A DNA stretch of 64,000 bases from Escherichia coli (GTDB lineage: Bacteria; Pseudomonadota; Gammaproteobacteria; Enterobacterales; Enterobacteriaceae). Positions 1,161 through 60,754 of the stretch are shown piece after piece. Where the stretch lies: NCBI RefSeq assembly GCF_041248615.1, contig NZ_CP158426.1. One strand, written 5' to 3'. The notes below the pieces were generated by a model. It made no database searches. It saw only the letters and a list, made by a program, of their open reading frames with translations, and was not told where the DNA came from. The translations under genes and the position numbers were made by a program. The stretch's first letter is position 1. The number at the start of each line of letters is the position of its first letter.

Positions 1161-1192
1161 AAAAAAAAACCATCCAAATCTGGATGGTTTTT
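1161..1192 (-). terminator. Rho-independent terminator downstream of rlmB
   Basis: Inverted repeat ccatccaaatctggatgg (1170-1187) flanked by an A-run on the plus strand (a T-run on the minus strand) and a T-run on the plus side, so it could act bidirectionally. Confidence 0.6.
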
Positions 1193-4509: not shown

Positions 4510-4935
4510 TCACTCCACCAGCAATAATTTATAAAGCGGTTGATTCTCTTCAACCAAATCGGCAAGCGTGTAGTTATCCAGTTCCGTAAGAAAACTTTGC
4601 ACGGCCTTAGAAAGTGCCTGTTTCAACCGACAGGCAGGTGTAATGTGGCAAAACTCACTGCTGCAATTCACCAGCGATAAGGGCTCCAGCTCGCGCACCA
4701 CATCACCAATACGTATCGCACTCGCCGGTTTACCCAGACGAATGCCGCCATTTTTTCCACGAACAGCAGTCACGTAGCCGGCACGACTAAGTTGATTGAT
4801 TATTTTGACCATATGATTACGGGAGACGCCGTAGACGTCAGTCACTTCAGAAATACTGGTCATCCGCCCTTCTGGCAATGACGCCATGTAGATCAGCGCA
4901 CGTAATCCGTAATCAGTGAAACTCGTTAACTGCAC
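4510..4935 (-). CDS. nsrR: Nitric-oxide-sensing Rrf2-family repressor NsrR (141 aa, GTG start)
   Basis: ORF translation [23 protein letters not shown]... with the three-Cys Fe-S ligand region; matches NsrR. Confidence 0.9.
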
Positions 4936-40576: not shown

Positions 40577-40741
40577 GGGAAAAAGAAAAAAAATTCTGAT
40601 CAGCACAAAATCGGGTGAAAACCCTGATTCACCTCACATTTCATCGCAATTTCTTCATCACCGTCATAAGCGAATCTGATTGTGCTACCATCGAAAATCT
40701 ACGCAGTTGCCCATAATTTGGGCGCAATCGGACATCAACCC

Positions 40742-49218: not shown

Positions 49219-50757
49219 ATGCAACAACCTGTAGTTCGCGTTGGCGAATGGCTTGTTACTCCGTCCATAAACCAAATTAGCCGCAATGGGCGTCAACTTA
49301 CCCTTGAGCCGAGATTAATCGATCTTCTGGTTTTCTTTGCTCAACACAGTGGCGAAGTACTTAGCAGGGATGAACTTATCGATAATGTCTGGAAGAGAAG
49401 TATTGTCACCAATCACGTTGTGACGCAGAGTATCTCAGAACTACGTAAGTCATTAAAAGATAATGATGAAGATAGTCCTGTCTATATCGCTACTGTACCA
49501 AAGCGCGGCTATAAATTAATGGTGCCGGTTATCTGGTACAGCGAAGAAGAGGGAGAGGAAATAATGCTATCTTCGCCTCCCCCTATACCAGAGGCGGTTC
49601 CTGACACAGATTCTCCCTCCCACAGTCTTAACATTCAAAACACCGCAACGCCACCTGAACAATCCCCAGTTAAAAGCAAACGATTCACTACCTTTTGGGT
49701 ATGGTTTTTTTTCCTGTTGTCGTTAGGTATCTGTGTAGCACTGGTAGCGTTTTCAAGTCTTGATACACGTCTTCCGATGAGCAAATCGCGTATTTTGCTC
49801 AATCCACGCGATATTGACATTAATATGGTAAATAAAAGTTGTAACAGCTGGAGTTCCCCGTATCAGCTCTCTTACGCGATAGGCGTGGGTGATTTGGTGG
49901 CGACATCACTTAACACCTTCTCCACCTTTATGGTGCATGACAAAATCAACTACAACATTGATGAACCGAGCAGTTCCGGTAAAACATTATCTATTGCGTT
50001 TGTTAATCAGCGCCAATACCGTGCTCAACAATGCTTTATGTCGGTAAAATTGGTAGACAATGCAGATGGTTCAACCATGCTGGATAAACGTTATGTCATC
50101 ACTAACGGTAATCAGCTGGCGATTCAAAATGATTTACTCCAGAGTTTATCAAAAGCGTTAAACCAACCGTGGCCACAACGAATGCAGGAGATGCTCCAGC
50201 AAATTTTGCCTCATCGTGGTGCGTTATTAACTAATTTTTATCAGGCACATGATTATTTACTGCATGGCGATGATAAATCATTGAACCGTGCCAGTGAATT
50301 ATTAGGTGAGATTGTTCAATCATCCCCAGAATTTACCTACGCGAGAGCAGAAAAAGCATTAGTTGATATCGTGCGCCATTCTCAACATCCTTTAGATGAA
50401 AAACAATTAGCAGCACTGAACACAGAAATAGATAACATTGTTACACTACCGGAATTGAATAACCTGTCCATTATATATCAAATAAAAGCGGTCAGTGCTC
50501 TGGTAAAAGGTAAAACAGATGAGTCTTACCAGGCGATAAATACTGGCATTGATCTTGAAATGTCCTGGCTAAATTATGTGTTGCTTGGCAAGGTTTATGA
50601 AATGAAGGGGATGAACCGGGAAGCAGCTGATGCATATCTCACCGCCTTTAATTTACGCCCAGGGGCAAACACCCTTTACTGGATTGAAAATGGTATATTC
50701 CAGACTTCTGTTCCTTATGTTGTACCTTATCTCGACAAATTTCTCGCTTCAGAATAA
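49219..50757 (+). CDS. cadC: ToxR-like membrane-integrated transcriptional activator CadC (512 aa)
   Basis: Translation MQQPVVRVGEWLVTPSINQISRNGRQLTLEPRLIDLLVFF... (winged-helix, single TM, periplasmic sensor); contains the PPPIP motif at codons 120-124 (49576-49590). Confidence 0.95.
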   Translation: MQQPVVRVGEWLVTPSINQISRNGRQLTLEPRLIDLLVFFAQHSGEVLSRDELIDNVWKRSIVTNHVVTQSISELRKSLKDNDEDSPVYIATVPKRGYKLMVPVIWYSEEEGEEIMLSSPPPIPEAVPDTDSPSHSLNIQNTATPPEQSPVKSKRFTTFWVWFFFLLSLGICVALVAFSSLDTRLPMSKSRILLNPRDIDINMVNKSCNSWSSPYQLSYAIGVGDLVATSLNTFSTFMVHDKINYNIDEPSSSGKTLSIAFVNQRQYRAQQCFMSVKLVDNADGSTMLDKRYVITNGNQLAIQNDLLQSLSKALNQPWPQRMQEMLQQILPHRGALLTNFYQAHDYLLHGDDKSLNRASELLGEIVQSSPEFTYARAEKALVDIVRHSQHPLDEKQLAALNTEIDNIVTLPELNNLSIIYQIKAVSALVKGKTDESYQAINTGIDLEMSWLNYVLLGKVYEMKGMNREAADAYLTAFNLRPGANTLYWIENGIFQTSVPYVVPYLDKFLASE

Positions 50758-56436: not shown

Positions 56437-57954
56437 ATGTCTGAACGAGAAACACGGGGAGCCAATGAGGCTATTGATTTTAACGATGAACTGAGAAATC
56501 GCCGCGAAAAACTGGCGGCACTACGTCAGCAAGGTGTGGCGTTTCCCAATGATTTTCGCCGCGACCATACCTCTGACCAGTTGCACGAAGAGTTTGATGC
56601 GAAGGATAACCAGGAACTGGAATCCTTAAACATTGAAGTCTCGGTTGCTGGCCGAATGATGACCCGTCGTATCATGGGGAAAGCCTCCTTTGTAACGTTG
56701 CAGGATGTCGGTGGCCGTATTCAACTGTACGTCGCACGAGATAGCCTGCCAGAAGGTGTTTATAACGATCAGTTTAAAAAATGGGATCTGGGTGACATTA
56801 TCGGTGCCCGCGGTACGCTGTTTAAGACGCAAACGGGTGAGCTTTCCATTCACTGTACTGAGCTGCGCCTGCTGACTAAAGCACTACGTCCTTTACCAGA
56901 TAAATTCCATGGTCTGCAGGATCAGGAAGTCCGTTATCGTCAACGTTATCTGGACCTCATCGCTAACGATAAATCCCGTCAAACGTTTGTTGTCCGTTCA
57001 AAAATTCTGGCCGCTATCCGTCAGTTCATGGTCGCGCGCGGCTTTATGGAAGTAGAAACCCCGATGATGCAGGTAATTCCAGGTGGGGCATCTGCTCGCC
57101 CGTTTATTACCCATCATAACGCTCTGGATTTAGATATGTACCTGCGTATCGCGCCAGAGCTGTATCTGAAACGTCTGGTTGTAGGCGGTTTTGAACGGGT
57201 ATTCGAAATCAACCGTAACTTCCGTAATGAAGGTATTTCTGTTCGCCATAATCCTGAGTTCACAATGATGGAACTCTACATGGCGTATGCGGATTACCAC
57301 GATTTGATTGAACTGACAGAGTCACTGTTCCGCACCCTGGCACAAGAGGTTCTGGGTACCACTAAAGTCACTTATGGCGAGCATGTGTTTGATTTCGGCA
57401 AACCGTTTGAAAAACTCACCATGCGCGAAGCAATCAAAAAATATCGTCCAGAAACCGATATGGCCGACCTGGATAATTTTGATGCCGCTAAAGCATTAGC
57501 TGAATCTATTGGTATTACGGTAGAGAAAAGCTGGGGGCTGGGACGTATTGTCACGGAGATCTTTGATGAAGTGGCAGAAGCACATCTGATTCAGCCAACC
57601 TTTATTACGGAATATCCCGCAGAAGTGTCACCGCTGGCGCGCCGTAATGATGTTAACCCGGAAATCACCGACCGATTTGAATTCTTCATCGGTGGTCGTG
57701 AAATCGGTAATGGTTTTAGCGAATTAAACGACGCAGAAGATCAGGCTGAACGTTTCCAGGAACAGGTTAACGCTAAAGCTGCAGGTGACGACGAAGCCAT
57801 GTTCTATGACGAAGATTACGTGACTGCGCTGGAATATGGTTTGCCACCAACCGCTGGTCTGGGTATTGGTATCGACCGAATGATTATGCTGTTTACAAAC
57901 AGTCATACTATTCGCGACGTTATTCTCTTCCCGGCGATGCGCCCACAGAAATAA
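56437..57954 (+). CDS. lysU: Lysine--tRNA ligase, heat-inducible isoform LysU (505 aa from ATG at 56437)
   Basis: Translation MSE(R/Q)[29 protein letters not shown]... (class II aaRS); assigned lysU rather than lysS by its position next to the cad/dtpC genes. Confidence 0.95.
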
Positions 57955-58072
57955 TTTTCACTTTAATGAACGAAGCAGTCAGGCGACTGCTTCGTTCATC
58001 ATTCCGCAAATCCAGTTTTGAGGAGAGACGCTTCGTTTCACGATAACCAGCGGGTCCACTCAACTACAGCTC

Positions 58073-58246
58073 CTAAAAGAGAGAAAAAAGTAATGCCACA
58101 GGCAGACTCATTGGCCAGGTTATTCCTACCAGGAATGCACTAAGTAAACGAATATGTGTTTTCTCATGTGAGATAAACCAGATAATGACAAAGGATATGT
58201 TCACACCAATCACATAAAAAATTAATATTTTAGAGAATAGTGCCAT
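58073..58246 (-). CDS. ghoT: Type V toxin GhoT, small membrane-lytic peptide (57 aa)
   Basis: Hand translation MALFSKILIFYVIGVNISFVIIWFISHEKTHIRLLSAFLVGITWPMSLPVALLFSLF, TAG stop at 58073-58075; immediately downstream of ghoS. Below the ORF-track cutoff. Confidence 0.85.
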   Translation of the reverse strand: MALFSKILIFYVIGVNISFVIIWFISHEKTHIRLLSAFLVGITWPMSLPVALLFSLF

Positions 58247-58273
58247 TTTTTATGTTCTTCTTATCCTTCCTGG

Positions 58274-58570
58274 CTACTTGTAAAACTGACGGAAATAATC
58301 ATCAACTGTCATAATGTTGAGGTCAAAGTCAATATCCGGTAAGTCTAAGCATTTAAGCCTGATTAAATCTTCGATTTCACTTGCGGCTAACGATGTCGTT
58401 ATTGCGAAGGAGTTTTCATTCAATTGTCGTGGTATCCCATATTCATCAGCCACGATAGAGGAGAAATTCATATCATACATCAATGATCTTAACCTTAAGA
58501 ACACTGAGGAATAAGATGATGGATAATCAAAAGAAACAACATAAGTATTGAACTTGTTTTTACCTTCCAT
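58274..58570 (-). CDS. ghoS: Type V antitoxin GhoS, sequence-specific endoribonuclease (98 aa)
   Basis: ORF translation MEGKNKFNTYVVSFDYPSSYSSVFLRLRSLMYDMNFSSIVADEYGIPRQLNEN... matches GhoS (YjdK). Confidence 0.85.
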   Translation of the reverse strand: MEGKNKFNTYVVSFDYPSSYSSVFLRLRSLMYDMNFSSIVADEYGIPRQLNENSFAITTSLAASEIEDLIRLKCLDLPDIDFDLNIMTVDDYFRQFYK

Positions 58571-58798
58571 AATATGACTCCTATCAATATTGAACGCTCT
58601 GGGGACGCAAAACTTATTAACCCCGATCGATGATTTTCATATAGGAGATATTCTTTTTTTTTTGCTCAGTAAAGGGGATGACTTGGGACAAAAAAACGCT
58701 CTCTCTGACCATTCTTTGTGCATCCCCCTACCCTTCAGATACTCTCCTGCATCACACCGCGGAGAGCAAGAAAAATATCGTGACTCTGTACTCTCCCA

Positions 58799-59071
58799 TC
58801 AACTTCGAATATCATCATACTCACGCGTTTTATCAAATTCGTGTTTCGCAAATGGGCATAGTGGGATAATTTTTCGTTTTTCCCGACGCATTTTTTCCAC
58901 GACTTTCGCAACCAGCTGTTTACCAATCCCTTGCCCTTTCAGGCTTTCATCGACATCGGTATGTTCGATAATCGCTAAATTCTCTCCGGTCGGCACAAAG
59001 ACAATTTCAGCGATTTGCTTGCCCTGTTCGTCATTAATGTAAAATTTATTGTGGCCTTCGCGTATTTCCAT
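58799..59071 (-). CDS. yjdJ: GNAT-family acetyltransferase-like protein YjdJ (90 aa)
   Basis: ORF translation [54 protein letters not shown]...; GNAT motif A (Q/RxxGxG/A). Confidence 0.8.
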
Positions 59072-59082
59072 TTTACCCTCGC

Positions 59083-59313
59083 TTATTTATGACGGTATTT
59101 CAGCGCGCCACTCGGGCACGTATCAATCACTTTAACCACAGTGGCAACGTCGACTTCATCCGGCATGATCCACGGCTTTCGTTTGAGATTAAATAACTTG
59201 CCGTTGCCACGTACGCAATTGCCAGAATGCTGACATATCGCAGTGTTGAAATAGACATCGATCTTTTCGCCGGTATAACAGCGATAACCCCCGTCCAGTA
59301 GCGCCTGATCCAT
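59083..59313 (-). CDS. yjdI: Small Cys-rich protein YjdI (76 aa from ATG at 59313)
   Basis: Translation [55 protein letters not shown]...; the ORF track shows a 102-aa extended version. Confidence 0.8.
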
Positions 59314-59332
59314 GACCTTCCCTCTCTCATCA

Positions 59333-60597
<1,265 letters not shown>

Positions 60598-60754
60598 GAT
60601 TATCGCTATAAGCATAGCCCCGGAATCTTCATACAGCACTGGCAGTTTCCGTTGCCAGAGTCTCTTCCCCTATATAGCCAATCATTCTTACTCCCTTTGA
60701 ATTACCCGCCTCATCAGAGATAATGCTTAAGAAATTTGTCACACAAGGAAGCTG

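What the first reader, a model, noticed from the sequence alone, without database searches (positions are those of the whole stretch)
58654..58663. T10 homopolymer in the ghoS upstream region
A run of ten T (A10 on the ghoST coding strand) lies ~85-95 bp upstream of the ghoS start codon. Homopolymers of this length are uncommon in E. coli and prone to slipped-strand length changes. Located in a toxin-antitoxin promoter region, length variation could modulate expression, or the tract may act as an UP-element-like A-tract.
Basis: seen in the sequence. Interest (0 to 1): 0.2.

Follow-up and report, generated by a model that had tools for sequence, protein, structure and literature searches.

The report
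Variable poly-A/T run upstream of ghoS
The ten-T run is real and its length differs between E. coli lineages (8 to 12 bases) through occasional replication slippage, but it behaves like an ordinary intergenic microsatellite, not an on/off switch for the GhoS/GhoT toxin-antitoxin genes.

Summary
The T10 run at 58654-58663 is confirmed. It is A10 on the yjdJ-ghoS-ghoT strand, 84-93 nt upstream of the ghoS ATG, and it is the only run of 10 or more in the 64-kb window (0.19-0.35 expected). Among 5,329 complete E. coli genomes with the locus, about 68% carry A8 (K-12, B, W, O157:H7, O104:H4). About 28% carry A10 (042, Nissle, ATCC 25922), about 2.7% A9 (the ST95 lineage and others), 17 carry A11 and at least one A12. 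Rare alleles sit on flanking haplotypes identical to those of common alleles, so slippage has recurred. Even so, about 96% of genomes carry A8 or A10, and named strains of the same lineage share an allele, so this is not phase variation. Two outgroup sequences point to 10 as the ancestral length. No credible sigma-70 promoter uses the tract as its spacer, and I found no mapped ghoS start site. In K-12, a published Term-seq 3' end lies 4 nt upstream of the tract, behind a conserved hairpin. A conserved CUCCU block that could pair with the ghoS Shine-Dalgarno sequence follows the tract directly. My best reading is a length-tolerant, unstructured A-rich linker. A role as an UP element or as an RNA-binding site remains untested.

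The parts
58654..58663 (-). The homopolymer: T10 on the plus strand, A10 on the yjdJ/ghoS/ghoT coding strand. Its length is polymorphic (A8-A12) among E. coli genomes.
   Evidence: Sequence. Alleles.
58672..58729 (-). Conserved long hairpin (outer stem GGGGAUG/CAUCCCC) followed by UUUACU. It looks like a terminator or a processing stop for RNA coming from yjdIJ or from a leader promoter.
   Evidence: Fold of 58668-58745: -23.4 kcal/mol, z = -1.9. The stem is conserved in alignment A1 and in outgroups L012 and L013.
58668..58668 (-). Position equivalent to the Term-seq RNA 3' end mapped in K-12 at 4352488(+). It lies 4 nt upstream of the tract.
   Evidence: Adams et al. 2021 (PMC7815308), supplementary files 1 and 3. 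Mapped to the window through L011.
58690..58696 (-). T7 run on the coding strand, inside the hairpin, 26 nt upstream of the tract. It serves as an internal control because it is invariant.
   Evidence: Invariant in alignment A1 and in all 27 sequences. Exact 61-64-mers that include it account for about 98.7% of genomes.
58641..58652 (-). Conserved block AAUAUCUCCUAU immediately 3' of the tract. It is a predicted anti-Shine-Dalgarno arm.
   Evidence: MFE and consensus folds. Invariant in E. coli and nearly so in the outgroups.
58571..58584 (-). ghoS ribosome-binding region AUAGGAGUCAUAUU, the predicted pairing partner of 58641-58652.
   Evidence: 12 pairs kept in 6 diverged sequences. There is no covariation and the fold z-score is only -0.56, so the pairing is inference only.
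58274..58570 (-). ghoS coding sequence (type V antitoxin endoribonuclease).
   Evidence: ORF; RefSeq annotation.
58073..58246 (-). ghoT coding sequence (membrane toxin).
58799..59071 (-). yjdJ coding sequence (GNAT acetyltransferase), the upstream neighbour. Its stop codon is 135 nt upstream of the tract.
58774..58836 (-). Two overlapping promoter-like matches at the 3' end of yjdJ: TTGATA-17-GATATT (58836-58808) and TTGATG-17-GATATT (58802-58774). Either could start a long ghoS leader that contains the hairpin and the tract.
   Evidence: Scores are 11.8 and 10.5 bits, no better than the best hit in shuffled sequence (median 10.1), so these are candidates only.

Best explanation
The tract is a genuine, heritable poly(dA:dT) microsatellite in the 228-bp yjdJ-ghoS intergenic region. 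Ten bases is probably the ancestral length. A 2-base deletion (A8) predominates in K-12-like, B1-like and O157-like lineages, and occasional one-base replication slippage produces A9, A11 and A12 sublineages. The tract lies between two conserved elements on the coding strand. Four nucleotides upstream is a hairpin that marks an RNA 3' end. Immediately downstream is a CUCCU-containing block that can pair with the ghoS ribosome-binding site. The tract is predicted to be unpaired. I read it as a length-tolerant A-rich linker. Its length drifts because changes of one or two bases have little or no effect on ghoST expression. It is not a phase-variation switch. What is shown: the tract exists, its length is polymorphic, the two common alleles dominate and track named lineages, changes recur, and in K-12 the RNA 3' end and an antisense Rho termination zone have been mapped. 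What is inferred: that length changes are near-neutral, that the tract is single-stranded, and that the anti-SD pairing forms.
For: Allele counts come from exact 61-64-mers searched against 5,426 complete genomes. The counts in the >=99% identity band are A10 1,502, A8 3,613, A9 150 and A11 23, of which 17 are full-length. One A12 was confirmed. About 7 partial hits inflate each band. Alleles track lineages and linked SNPs: A8 occurs with G at alignment column 103 and A10 with T. A9 is shared by the ST95-type strains APEC O1, S88 and UM146. Changes recur on identical haplotypes: 042-type A10 versus O169:H41 A11; XDL A10 versus ST648 A9; W A8 versus O22:H8 A9; and one B2 haplotype carrying A9, A11 and A12. 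The same-patient isolates 4/0 and 4/1-1 differ only by this indel across 8 kb. Outgroups: a divergent E. coli-like genome has A10, and Escherichia sp. MOD1-EC7003 has AAAGGAAAAA, also 10 nt. No promoter uses the tract as its spacer. No terminator hairpin precedes the T-run on the plus strand (z = 0.11). The tract is unpaired in the MFE fold of the whole intergenic RNA. Published work states that indel rates at E. coli mononucleotide runs rise exponentially with run length (PMC11754648).
Against: Near-neutrality is inferred, not measured. No expression data exist for any allele. The blocks on both sides of the tract are conserved across Escherichia clades, and the tract has stayed at 8 or more uninterrupted A in at least 98.7% of E. 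coli genomes. That is also what a functional A-rich element would look like. Some rare alleles may be homopolymer errors in long-read assemblies. The ghoS transcription start is unknown, so it is unsettled whether the tract acts as DNA upstream of a promoter or as RNA in a leader.
Confidence: 0.6

Rival explanations
1. The tract is an UP-element-like or curvature A-tract for a weak ghoS promoter just downstream. If the -35 hexamer is near 58640-58635 and transcription starts near 58605, the tract lies at about -49 to -58. There it could contact the RNA polymerase alpha C-terminal domain or shape binding by H-NS or Fis. Length alleles would then shift helical phasing and so promoter strength.
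For: The tract plus GAA matches the proximal UP subsite consensus AAAAAARNR (Estrem et al. 1999, cited from my own knowledge). A candidate core promoter, ATGAAA-18-TAAGTT, lies at the right distance. A -10-like TAAGTT, TAAATT or TATACT persists at that spot in O157, L012 and L013. The ghoST region is AT-rich at 32-37% GC. Published work reports ghoST transcription induced under starvation in some (p)ppGpp backgrounds (PMC11783221), so a regulated promoter must exist somewhere.
Against: The candidate core promoter scores 6.9 bits, below the median best score of shuffled sequence (10.1), and the consensus scan missed it. A 2-bp length difference rotates an UP element by about 70 degrees, yet both A8 and A10 are fixed in large clades. 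No ghoS start site could be found in the held literature.
Confidence: 0.2
2. The tract works at the RNA level. It would be an exposed single-stranded A-rich site in a long ghoS leader. It could bind the distal face of Hfq or ribosomal protein S1, or act as a ribosome standby site next to the helix that sequesters the ghoS Shine-Dalgarno sequence. That would help translation of the antitoxin.
For: The tract is unpaired between two structured domains in the MFE fold. It is followed directly by a conserved CUCCUAU block that pairs with AUAGGAG of the ghoS ribosome-binding site in all six diverged sequences, including one with a 58-nt insertion in the loop. Promoter-like sites at the yjdJ 3' end could start such a leader. 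Adams et al. listed the 3' end among 3' ends lying within 200 nt upstream of an ORF.
Against: There is no covariation, and the fold z-score is only -0.56. The upstream promoter candidates are at chance level. No Hfq or sRNA link to ghoS was found in the papers searched. Frequent termination at the hairpin would leave few transcripts carrying the tract.
Confidence: 0.12
3. The tract acts on the opposite strand. As U8-U10 in an antisense RNA that runs through ghoS, it would be a pause element that helps Rho terminate that RNA about 47 nt further on. This would protect yjdJ from antisense read-through.
For: Adams et al. report a strong Rho-dependent termination region at K-12 4352446(-), with p = 3e-50 and read-through rising in bicyclomycin. 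This corresponds to window position ~58710(+). The plus strand downstream of the tract is C-rich and G-poor, with GC skew about -0.25, as expected of a rut site. Promoter-like sites on the plus strand lie inside ghoT and ghoS. Published work detects RNase III cleavage sites in the ghoS transcript, reported in a section on inter-molecular duplexes (PMC6212723).
Against: No hairpin precedes the U-run. Rho termination does not require a U-tract. Nothing ties the tract itself to the termination point.
Confidence: 0.05
4. The tract is a true phase-variable contingency switch. High-frequency reversible slippage in the tract would turn ghoST expression on and off within clonal populations.
For: A homopolymer of 10 is within the range that slips. 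Five length alleles exist. One same-patient isolate pair differs only at the tract.
Against: About 96% of genomes carry A8 or A10, and named strains of one lineage share an allele. The tract is not in a promoter spacer or an ORF. The only ORF crossing it is not conserved in frame. E. coli has functional mismatch repair and few known SSR switches (my own knowledge).
Confidence: 0.03

Closest known systems
Polymorphic mononucleotide simple-sequence repeats in non-coding E. coli DNA (Gur-Arie et al. 2000 and Diamant et al. 2004, cited from my own knowledge; length-dependent indel rate as cited in PMC11754648)
   Same: It is a long A/T run in an intergenic region. Its flanks are conserved, its length differs between strains by one or a few bases, its alleles track lineages, and changes occasionally recur.
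   Different: I found no record of this particular locus being described. It sits between two conserved RNA-structure elements, which most such repeats do not.
Phase-variable promoter homopolymers of contingency loci (for example the Neisseria porA poly-G and opc poly-C tracts, the Bordetella fim poly-C tract and the Mycoplasma vlp poly-A tract)
   Same: It is a homopolymer upstream of a gene whose length can change by slippage.
   Different: It is not located between a recognisable -35 and -10. Its alleles are fixed in large lineages and are not mixed within clones. The host is mismatch-repair proficient.
UP elements of sigma-70 promoters (rrnB P1 type; proximal subsite AAAAAARNR)
   Same: The A-run followed by GAA matches the proximal subsite consensus. 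The surrounding DNA is AT-rich and lies upstream of a gene.
   Different: No core promoter or start site has been established at the required distance. A 2-bp length dimorphism is tolerated.
A-rich Hfq or S1 sites and ribosome standby sites in leaders with a sequestered ribosome-binding site (the rpoS leader A6/(AAN)4 elements; the tisB standby site)
   Same: It is a predicted single-stranded A-rich stretch next to a helix that could occlude the Shine-Dalgarno sequence of a toxin-antitoxin gene.
   Different: The helix and the leader are predictions only. No binding, sRNA partner or start-site data exist.

Membership tests
Polymorphic mononucleotide microsatellite (SSR) locus | An uninterrupted homopolymer of about 8 nt or more in non-coding DNA | tested here: met
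   T10 at 58654-58663 lies in the yjdJ-ghoS intergenic region.
Polymorphic mononucleotide microsatellite (SSR) locus | Length differs among strains while the flanks stay conserved | tested here: met
   A8, A9, A10, A11 and A12 alleles occur with invariant flanks of 36 and 17 nt in about 98.7% of 5,329 genomes.
Polymorphic mononucleotide microsatellite (SSR) locus | Changes arise by stepwise slippage, seen as independent one-base changes on the same haplotype | tested here: met
   At least five allele pairs or sets share identical flanking haplotypes. Assembly error cannot be excluded for the singletons.
Phase-variable SSR promoter switch | The repeat lies in the -35/-10 spacer or inside the ORF of the regulated gene | tested here: not met
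   The best promoter overlapping the tract scores 5.8 bits or less for any allele from A7 to A12, against a shuffle median of 10.1. The consensus scan gave no hit. The 31-aa ORF that crosses the tract changes frame between alleles.
Phase-variable SSR promoter switch | High-frequency reversible length change within clones | tested here: inconclusive
   The population data argue against it, since about 96% of genomes carry A8 or A10 and named strains of one lineage share an allele. Within-culture heterogeneity needs read-level data, which I did not have.
Phase-variable SSR promoter switch | Length alleles give distinct expression states | not testable with these tools
   This needs reporter fusions or RNA and protein measurements.
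UP element | An A/T-rich sequence matching the UP consensus | tested here: met
   AAAAAAGAA matches AAAAAARNR. This was read directly from the sequence; the consensus is cited from my own knowledge.
UP element | Position -40 to -60 relative to a mapped transcription start | tested here: inconclusive
   No ghoS start site was found in the held papers or supplements. The only positionally compatible core promoter scores at chance level.
UP element | Stimulation dependent on the alpha C-terminal domain | not testable with these tools
   This needs in vitro transcription or alpha-subunit mutants.
Intrinsic terminator T-tract | A G+C-rich hairpin immediately followed by the T-run on the transcribed strand | tested here: not met
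   The scan found 0 terminator-like sites in 58000-59400. The plus-strand RNA upstream of U10 folds no better than shuffled sequence. On the minus strand the run is A, and it lies after the hairpin.

The most novel reading that the evidence does not exclude
The tract could be an evolvable tuning element of the type V GhoS/GhoT system. Its length would set the spacing between the upstream terminator or attenuator hairpin and the anti-SD block, or the phasing of an UP-like element. The deep A8/A10 dimorphism and the A9 and A11 sublineages would then give lineage-specific antitoxin-to-toxin set-points. The A-rich stretch might also act as an Hfq, S1 or ribosome-standby platform for a leader with a sequestered ribosome-binding site.
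Probability: 0.1. Interest if true: 0.4.

Novelty: new member of a known kind. Interest (0 to 1): 0.15.

Why it matters
As it stands, the finding matters little. It is one more polymorphic intergenic homopolymer. It could serve as a cheap lineage marker (A8 versus A10, with A9 in ST95-type strains), and it is a warning about homopolymer errors in assemblies. It would matter modestly if the length alleles changed GhoS/GhoT expression, because transcriptional and translational control of this type V system is essentially uncharacterised. The by-products are probably more useful leads for understanding ghoST control than the tract itself. These are the conserved hairpin with a mapped RNA 3' end, a possible anti-SD helix, and a Rho-terminated antisense RNA.

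Tried and rejected
- **Short megablast queries.** Queries of 61-63 nt returned nothing, most likely because low-complexity masking of the T7 and A-runs leaves fewer than 28 unmasked bases. I repeated them with blastn 'distant' mode.
- **Promoter-spacer model.** I scanned alleles A7 to A12 with a position weight matrix. Nothing credible overlaps the tract.
- **Terminator T-tract model.** Rejected for both strands.
- **Known RNA family.** Rfam gave no match in 57900-59400 at E <= 1.
- **Small ORF.** The 31-aa ORF at 58617-58712(-) reads the tract as KKK. I rejected it because the A8, A9 and A10 alleles put the downstream part in different frames, and I saw no obvious Shine-Dalgarno sequence upstream.
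- **Search for a mapped ghoS start site.** The original GhoST papers and the Thomason dRNA-seq paper are not held. Supplements of the Cappable-seq, SMRT-Cappable-seq, Kim 2012 and Cho 2014 papers have no entry for this locus. Two further papers have no supplements held as text.
- **Wider phylogenetic reach.** A degenerate ghoS N-terminal pattern found only 2 loci among 100,044 species genomes. GhoS tblastn against plasmids hit only E. coli records, several of them as large as a chromosome. The locus appears confined to Escherichia, so no deep comparison is possible.
- **Hfq or sRNA link.** Nothing relevant was found in the literature searched.

Full report
**Observation.** The plus strand reads ...GGAGATATTC TTTTTTTTTT GCTCAG..., with the ten T at exactly 58654-58663. 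The genes yjdI (59083-59313), yjdJ (58799-59071), ghoS (58274-58570) and ghoT (58073-58246) all lie on the minus strand. The run is therefore A10 on their coding strand. It sits 84-93 nt upstream of the ghoS ATG and 135 nt downstream of the yjdJ stop codon.

It is the only homopolymer of 10 or more in the window. An i.i.d. model expects 0.19 such runs and a first-order Markov model about 0.35. One run of this length in 64 kb is therefore uncommon but not statistically remarkable. All five runs of 8 or more in the window are A/T, and four of them lie outside real genes.

**Where the window comes from.** A 451-nt query around the tract is 100% identical to E. coli 042. Over a longer stretch the window is only 99.0% identical to 042. 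It is 100% identical to NZ_LT599825.1, including a 1,262-bp ISEc31 insertion at 59338-60599 that 042 lacks.

**Is the length variable?** Yes.
- A first alignment of ten strains showed A10 in 042, XDL, LS4 and 50579417. It showed A8 in W, O104:H4, SMN013SH2, B, O157:H7 and 13C1065T. The two groups are in perfect linkage with a SNP 45 nt away.
- I then searched all 5,426 complete E. coli genomes with exact allele-specific queries: 36 nt of invariant left flank, the A-run, and 17 nt of invariant right flank.
- Megablast failed on these queries, most likely because low-complexity masking of the runs leaves too little unmasked sequence to seed a match. Blastn worked.
- 5,336 genomes have the locus, and 5,329 have it at full length.
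- Counts in the >=99% identity band are A10 1,502, A8 3,613, A9 150 and A11 23, of which 17 are full-length.
- About seven partial alignments inflate each band. The corrected shares are roughly A8 68%, A10 28%, A9 2.7% and A11 0.3%.
- One A12 was confirmed in strain SCU-387.
- About 1.3% of genomes remain unclassified. They have another length or a flank SNP.

**Slippage-prone, or a few old events?** Both.
- The two common alleles follow deep lineages. K-12, B/BL21, W, O104:H4, O111:H8 and O157:H7 carry A8. 042, Nissle 1917 and ATCC 25922 carry A10.
- A9 is shared by ST95-type strains such as APEC O1, S88, UM146 and IMT5155.
- Two outgroups suggest that 10 is the ancestral length. A divergent E. 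coli-like genome (L012) has A10. Escherichia sp. MOD1-EC7003 (L013) has AAAGGAAAAA, which is also ten bases.
- I fetched 13 further genomes carrying rare alleles or chosen as comparators, and compared 32 variable flanking columns. Different lengths sit on identical haplotypes:
  - the 042-type haplotype with A10 or A11 (O169:H41);
  - the XDL type with A10 or A9 (ST648);
  - the W type with A8 or A9 (O22:H8 strain 154);
  - one B2 haplotype with A9 (ATCC 11775, APEC O1), A11 (NC101, K-15KW01) and A12 (SCU-387).
- Isolates 4/0 (urinary tract infection, A9) and 4/1-1 (faeces, A10) come from one Swedish series. They are identical over 8,063 bp except for this single-base indel.
- The T7 run 26 nt away never varies.
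- This is the expected behaviour of a long mononucleotide run. Published work states that indel rates in E. coli rise exponentially with run length (PMC11754648).
- Some singleton alleles may be long-read assembly errors. The ST95 A9 allele cannot be, because it recurs in many independent assemblies.
- The pattern is not phase variation. About 96% of genomes carry one of two alleles, and named strains of one lineage share an allele.

**What surrounds the tract on the coding strand.**
- Upstream is a conserved long hairpin at 58672-58729. Its outer stem is GGGGAUG/CAUCCCC. The fold energy is -23.4 kcal/mol with z = -1.9. It is followed by UUUACU, then GAGC, then the tract.
- In K-12 the tract is A8 at 4352493-4352500. 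Term-seq data of Adams et al. 2021 (PMC7815308) place an RNA 3' end at 4352488(+) in two conditions. The authors class it as 'orphan, 96 nt upstream of ghoS'. That position is the last U of UUUACU, 4 nt before the tract, and corresponds to window position 58668.
- The tract therefore lies just past a terminator-like or exonuclease-stop hairpin. The simple terminator scan did not call this hairpin because its loop is long and its U-tract is weak.
- Downstream, the tract is followed at once by GAAUAUCUCCUAU (58641-58653). This block is invariant in E. coli and nearly so in both outgroups, although the next 30 nt diverge strongly in L012.
- In MFE and consensus folds this block pairs with AUAGGAGUCAUAUU (58571-58584), the ghoS ribosome-binding site. 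The tract itself is left unpaired.
- The pairing is kept in six diverged sequences, including L013, which has a ~58-nt palindromic insertion in the intervening loop.
- There is no covariation, and the fold is no better than shuffled sequence (z = -0.56). The helix is a lead, not a result.

**Promoters.**
- The consensus scan found only one minus-strand site nearby, TTGATA-17-GATATT at 58836-58808, inside the 3' end of yjdJ.
- My PWM scan added TTGATG-17-GATATT at 58802-58774.
- The two sites score 11.8 and 10.5 bits. The median best score in shuffled sequence is 10.1, so neither is significant.
- For alleles A7 to A12, no promoter with the tract in or next to its spacer scores above 5.8 bits.
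- A weak ATGAAA-18-TAAGTT at 58640-58611 (6.9 bits) would put the tract at about -49 to -58. The tract plus GAA fits the proximal UP subsite AAAAAARNR (my own knowledge). An UP-like role therefore cannot be excluded, but it has no statistical support.
- I could not find a mapped ghoS start site in any held paper or supplement.

**Opposite strand.**
- On the plus strand the T-run is not preceded by a hairpin (z = 0.11), and the hairpin that follows it is not followed by a T-run. It is therefore not an intrinsic terminator in either direction.
- Adams et al. report a strong Rho-dependent termination region at K-12 4352446(-), p = 3e-50. This corresponds to window position ~58710(+), about 47 nt past the tract in the antisense direction.
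- An antisense RNA therefore crosses the tract as U8-U10. The plus strand there is C-rich and G-poor.
- Promoter-like sites exist on the plus strand inside ghoT and ghoS.
- RNase III cleavage sites have been detected in the ghoS transcript, reported in a section on inter-molecular duplexes (PMC6212723).
- Whether the U-run contributes to pausing is unknown.

**Other checks.**
- Rfam has no family matching this region.
- The 31-aa ORF at 58617-58712(-) reads the tract as Lys-Lys-Lys, but its frame differs between alleles, so it is not a gene.
- ghoS appears confined to Escherichia. Only 2 loci turned up among 100,044 species genomes, and plasmid hits were all E. coli records.

**Verdict.** The 'promoter element or expression modulator' half is unsupported and remains open.

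My probabilities for the competing readings are:
- a near-neutral, length-tolerant A-rich linker between two conserved RNA elements: about 0.6;
- an UP-like or curvature element: about 0.2;
- an Hfq, S1 or standby site in a ghoS leader: about 0.12;
- an antisense pause element: about 0.05;
- a true phase switch: about 0.03.

This is a new example of a well-known kind of feature and deserves low interest. The hairpin with its mapped 3' end, the possible anti-SD helix and the antisense RNA are better leads into ghoST control than the tract itself.

Noticed in passing
window 59338-60599: A 1,262-bp ISEc31 (IS3-family) copy is inserted between yjdI and dcuS. It is absent from strain 042 and from all other complete genomes at this site. 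Only NZ_LT599825.1 matches, at 100%, which identifies the source of the window.
   Followed up: partly
window 58668-58729, minus strand: A conserved long hairpin followed by UUUACU. Its end coincides with a published K-12 Term-seq 3' end classed as 'orphan, -96 of ghoS'. It could be the yjdIJ terminator or an attenuator in a ghoS leader.
   Followed up: partly
window 58641-58652 with 58571-58584, minus strand: A conserved CUCCUAU block can pair with the ghoS Shine-Dalgarno region (AUAGGAG). This suggests translational occlusion of the antitoxin gene. No covariation is available to test it.
   Followed up: partly
window ~58710, plus strand (K-12 4352446, minus strand): Published data show strong Rho-dependent termination of an antisense RNA that runs through ghoS and the tract. 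Its promoter is unknown. Promoter-like sites lie at 58200-58229 and 58286-58315 on the plus strand.
   Followed up: no
L013 about 4513-4570: Escherichia sp. MOD1-EC7003 carries a ~58-nt palindromic, MITE-like insertion with TATACTC...GAGTATA ends in the ghoS leader. Its tract is interrupted (AAAGGAAAAA).
   Followed up: no
L021 and L022 (strains 4/0 and 4/1-1): A urinary and a faecal isolate from one Swedish series are identical over 8 kb except for A9 versus A10 at this tract. This is either very recent slippage or a homopolymer assembly error.
   Followed up: partly
window 1161-1169, 18985-18992, 40586-40593, 49705-49712: These are the other long A/T runs in the window (A9, T8, A8, T8). Three are intergenic. 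The T8 at 49705 lies inside a long ORF. I did not check their polymorphism.
   Followed up: no
one search hit table (e.g. strains LS4, EC28, L1PEag1): Several genomes whose match spans 450 nt show a second matching place for part of the 58450-58900 query elsewhere in the chromosome. I did not examine what is duplicated.
   Followed up: no
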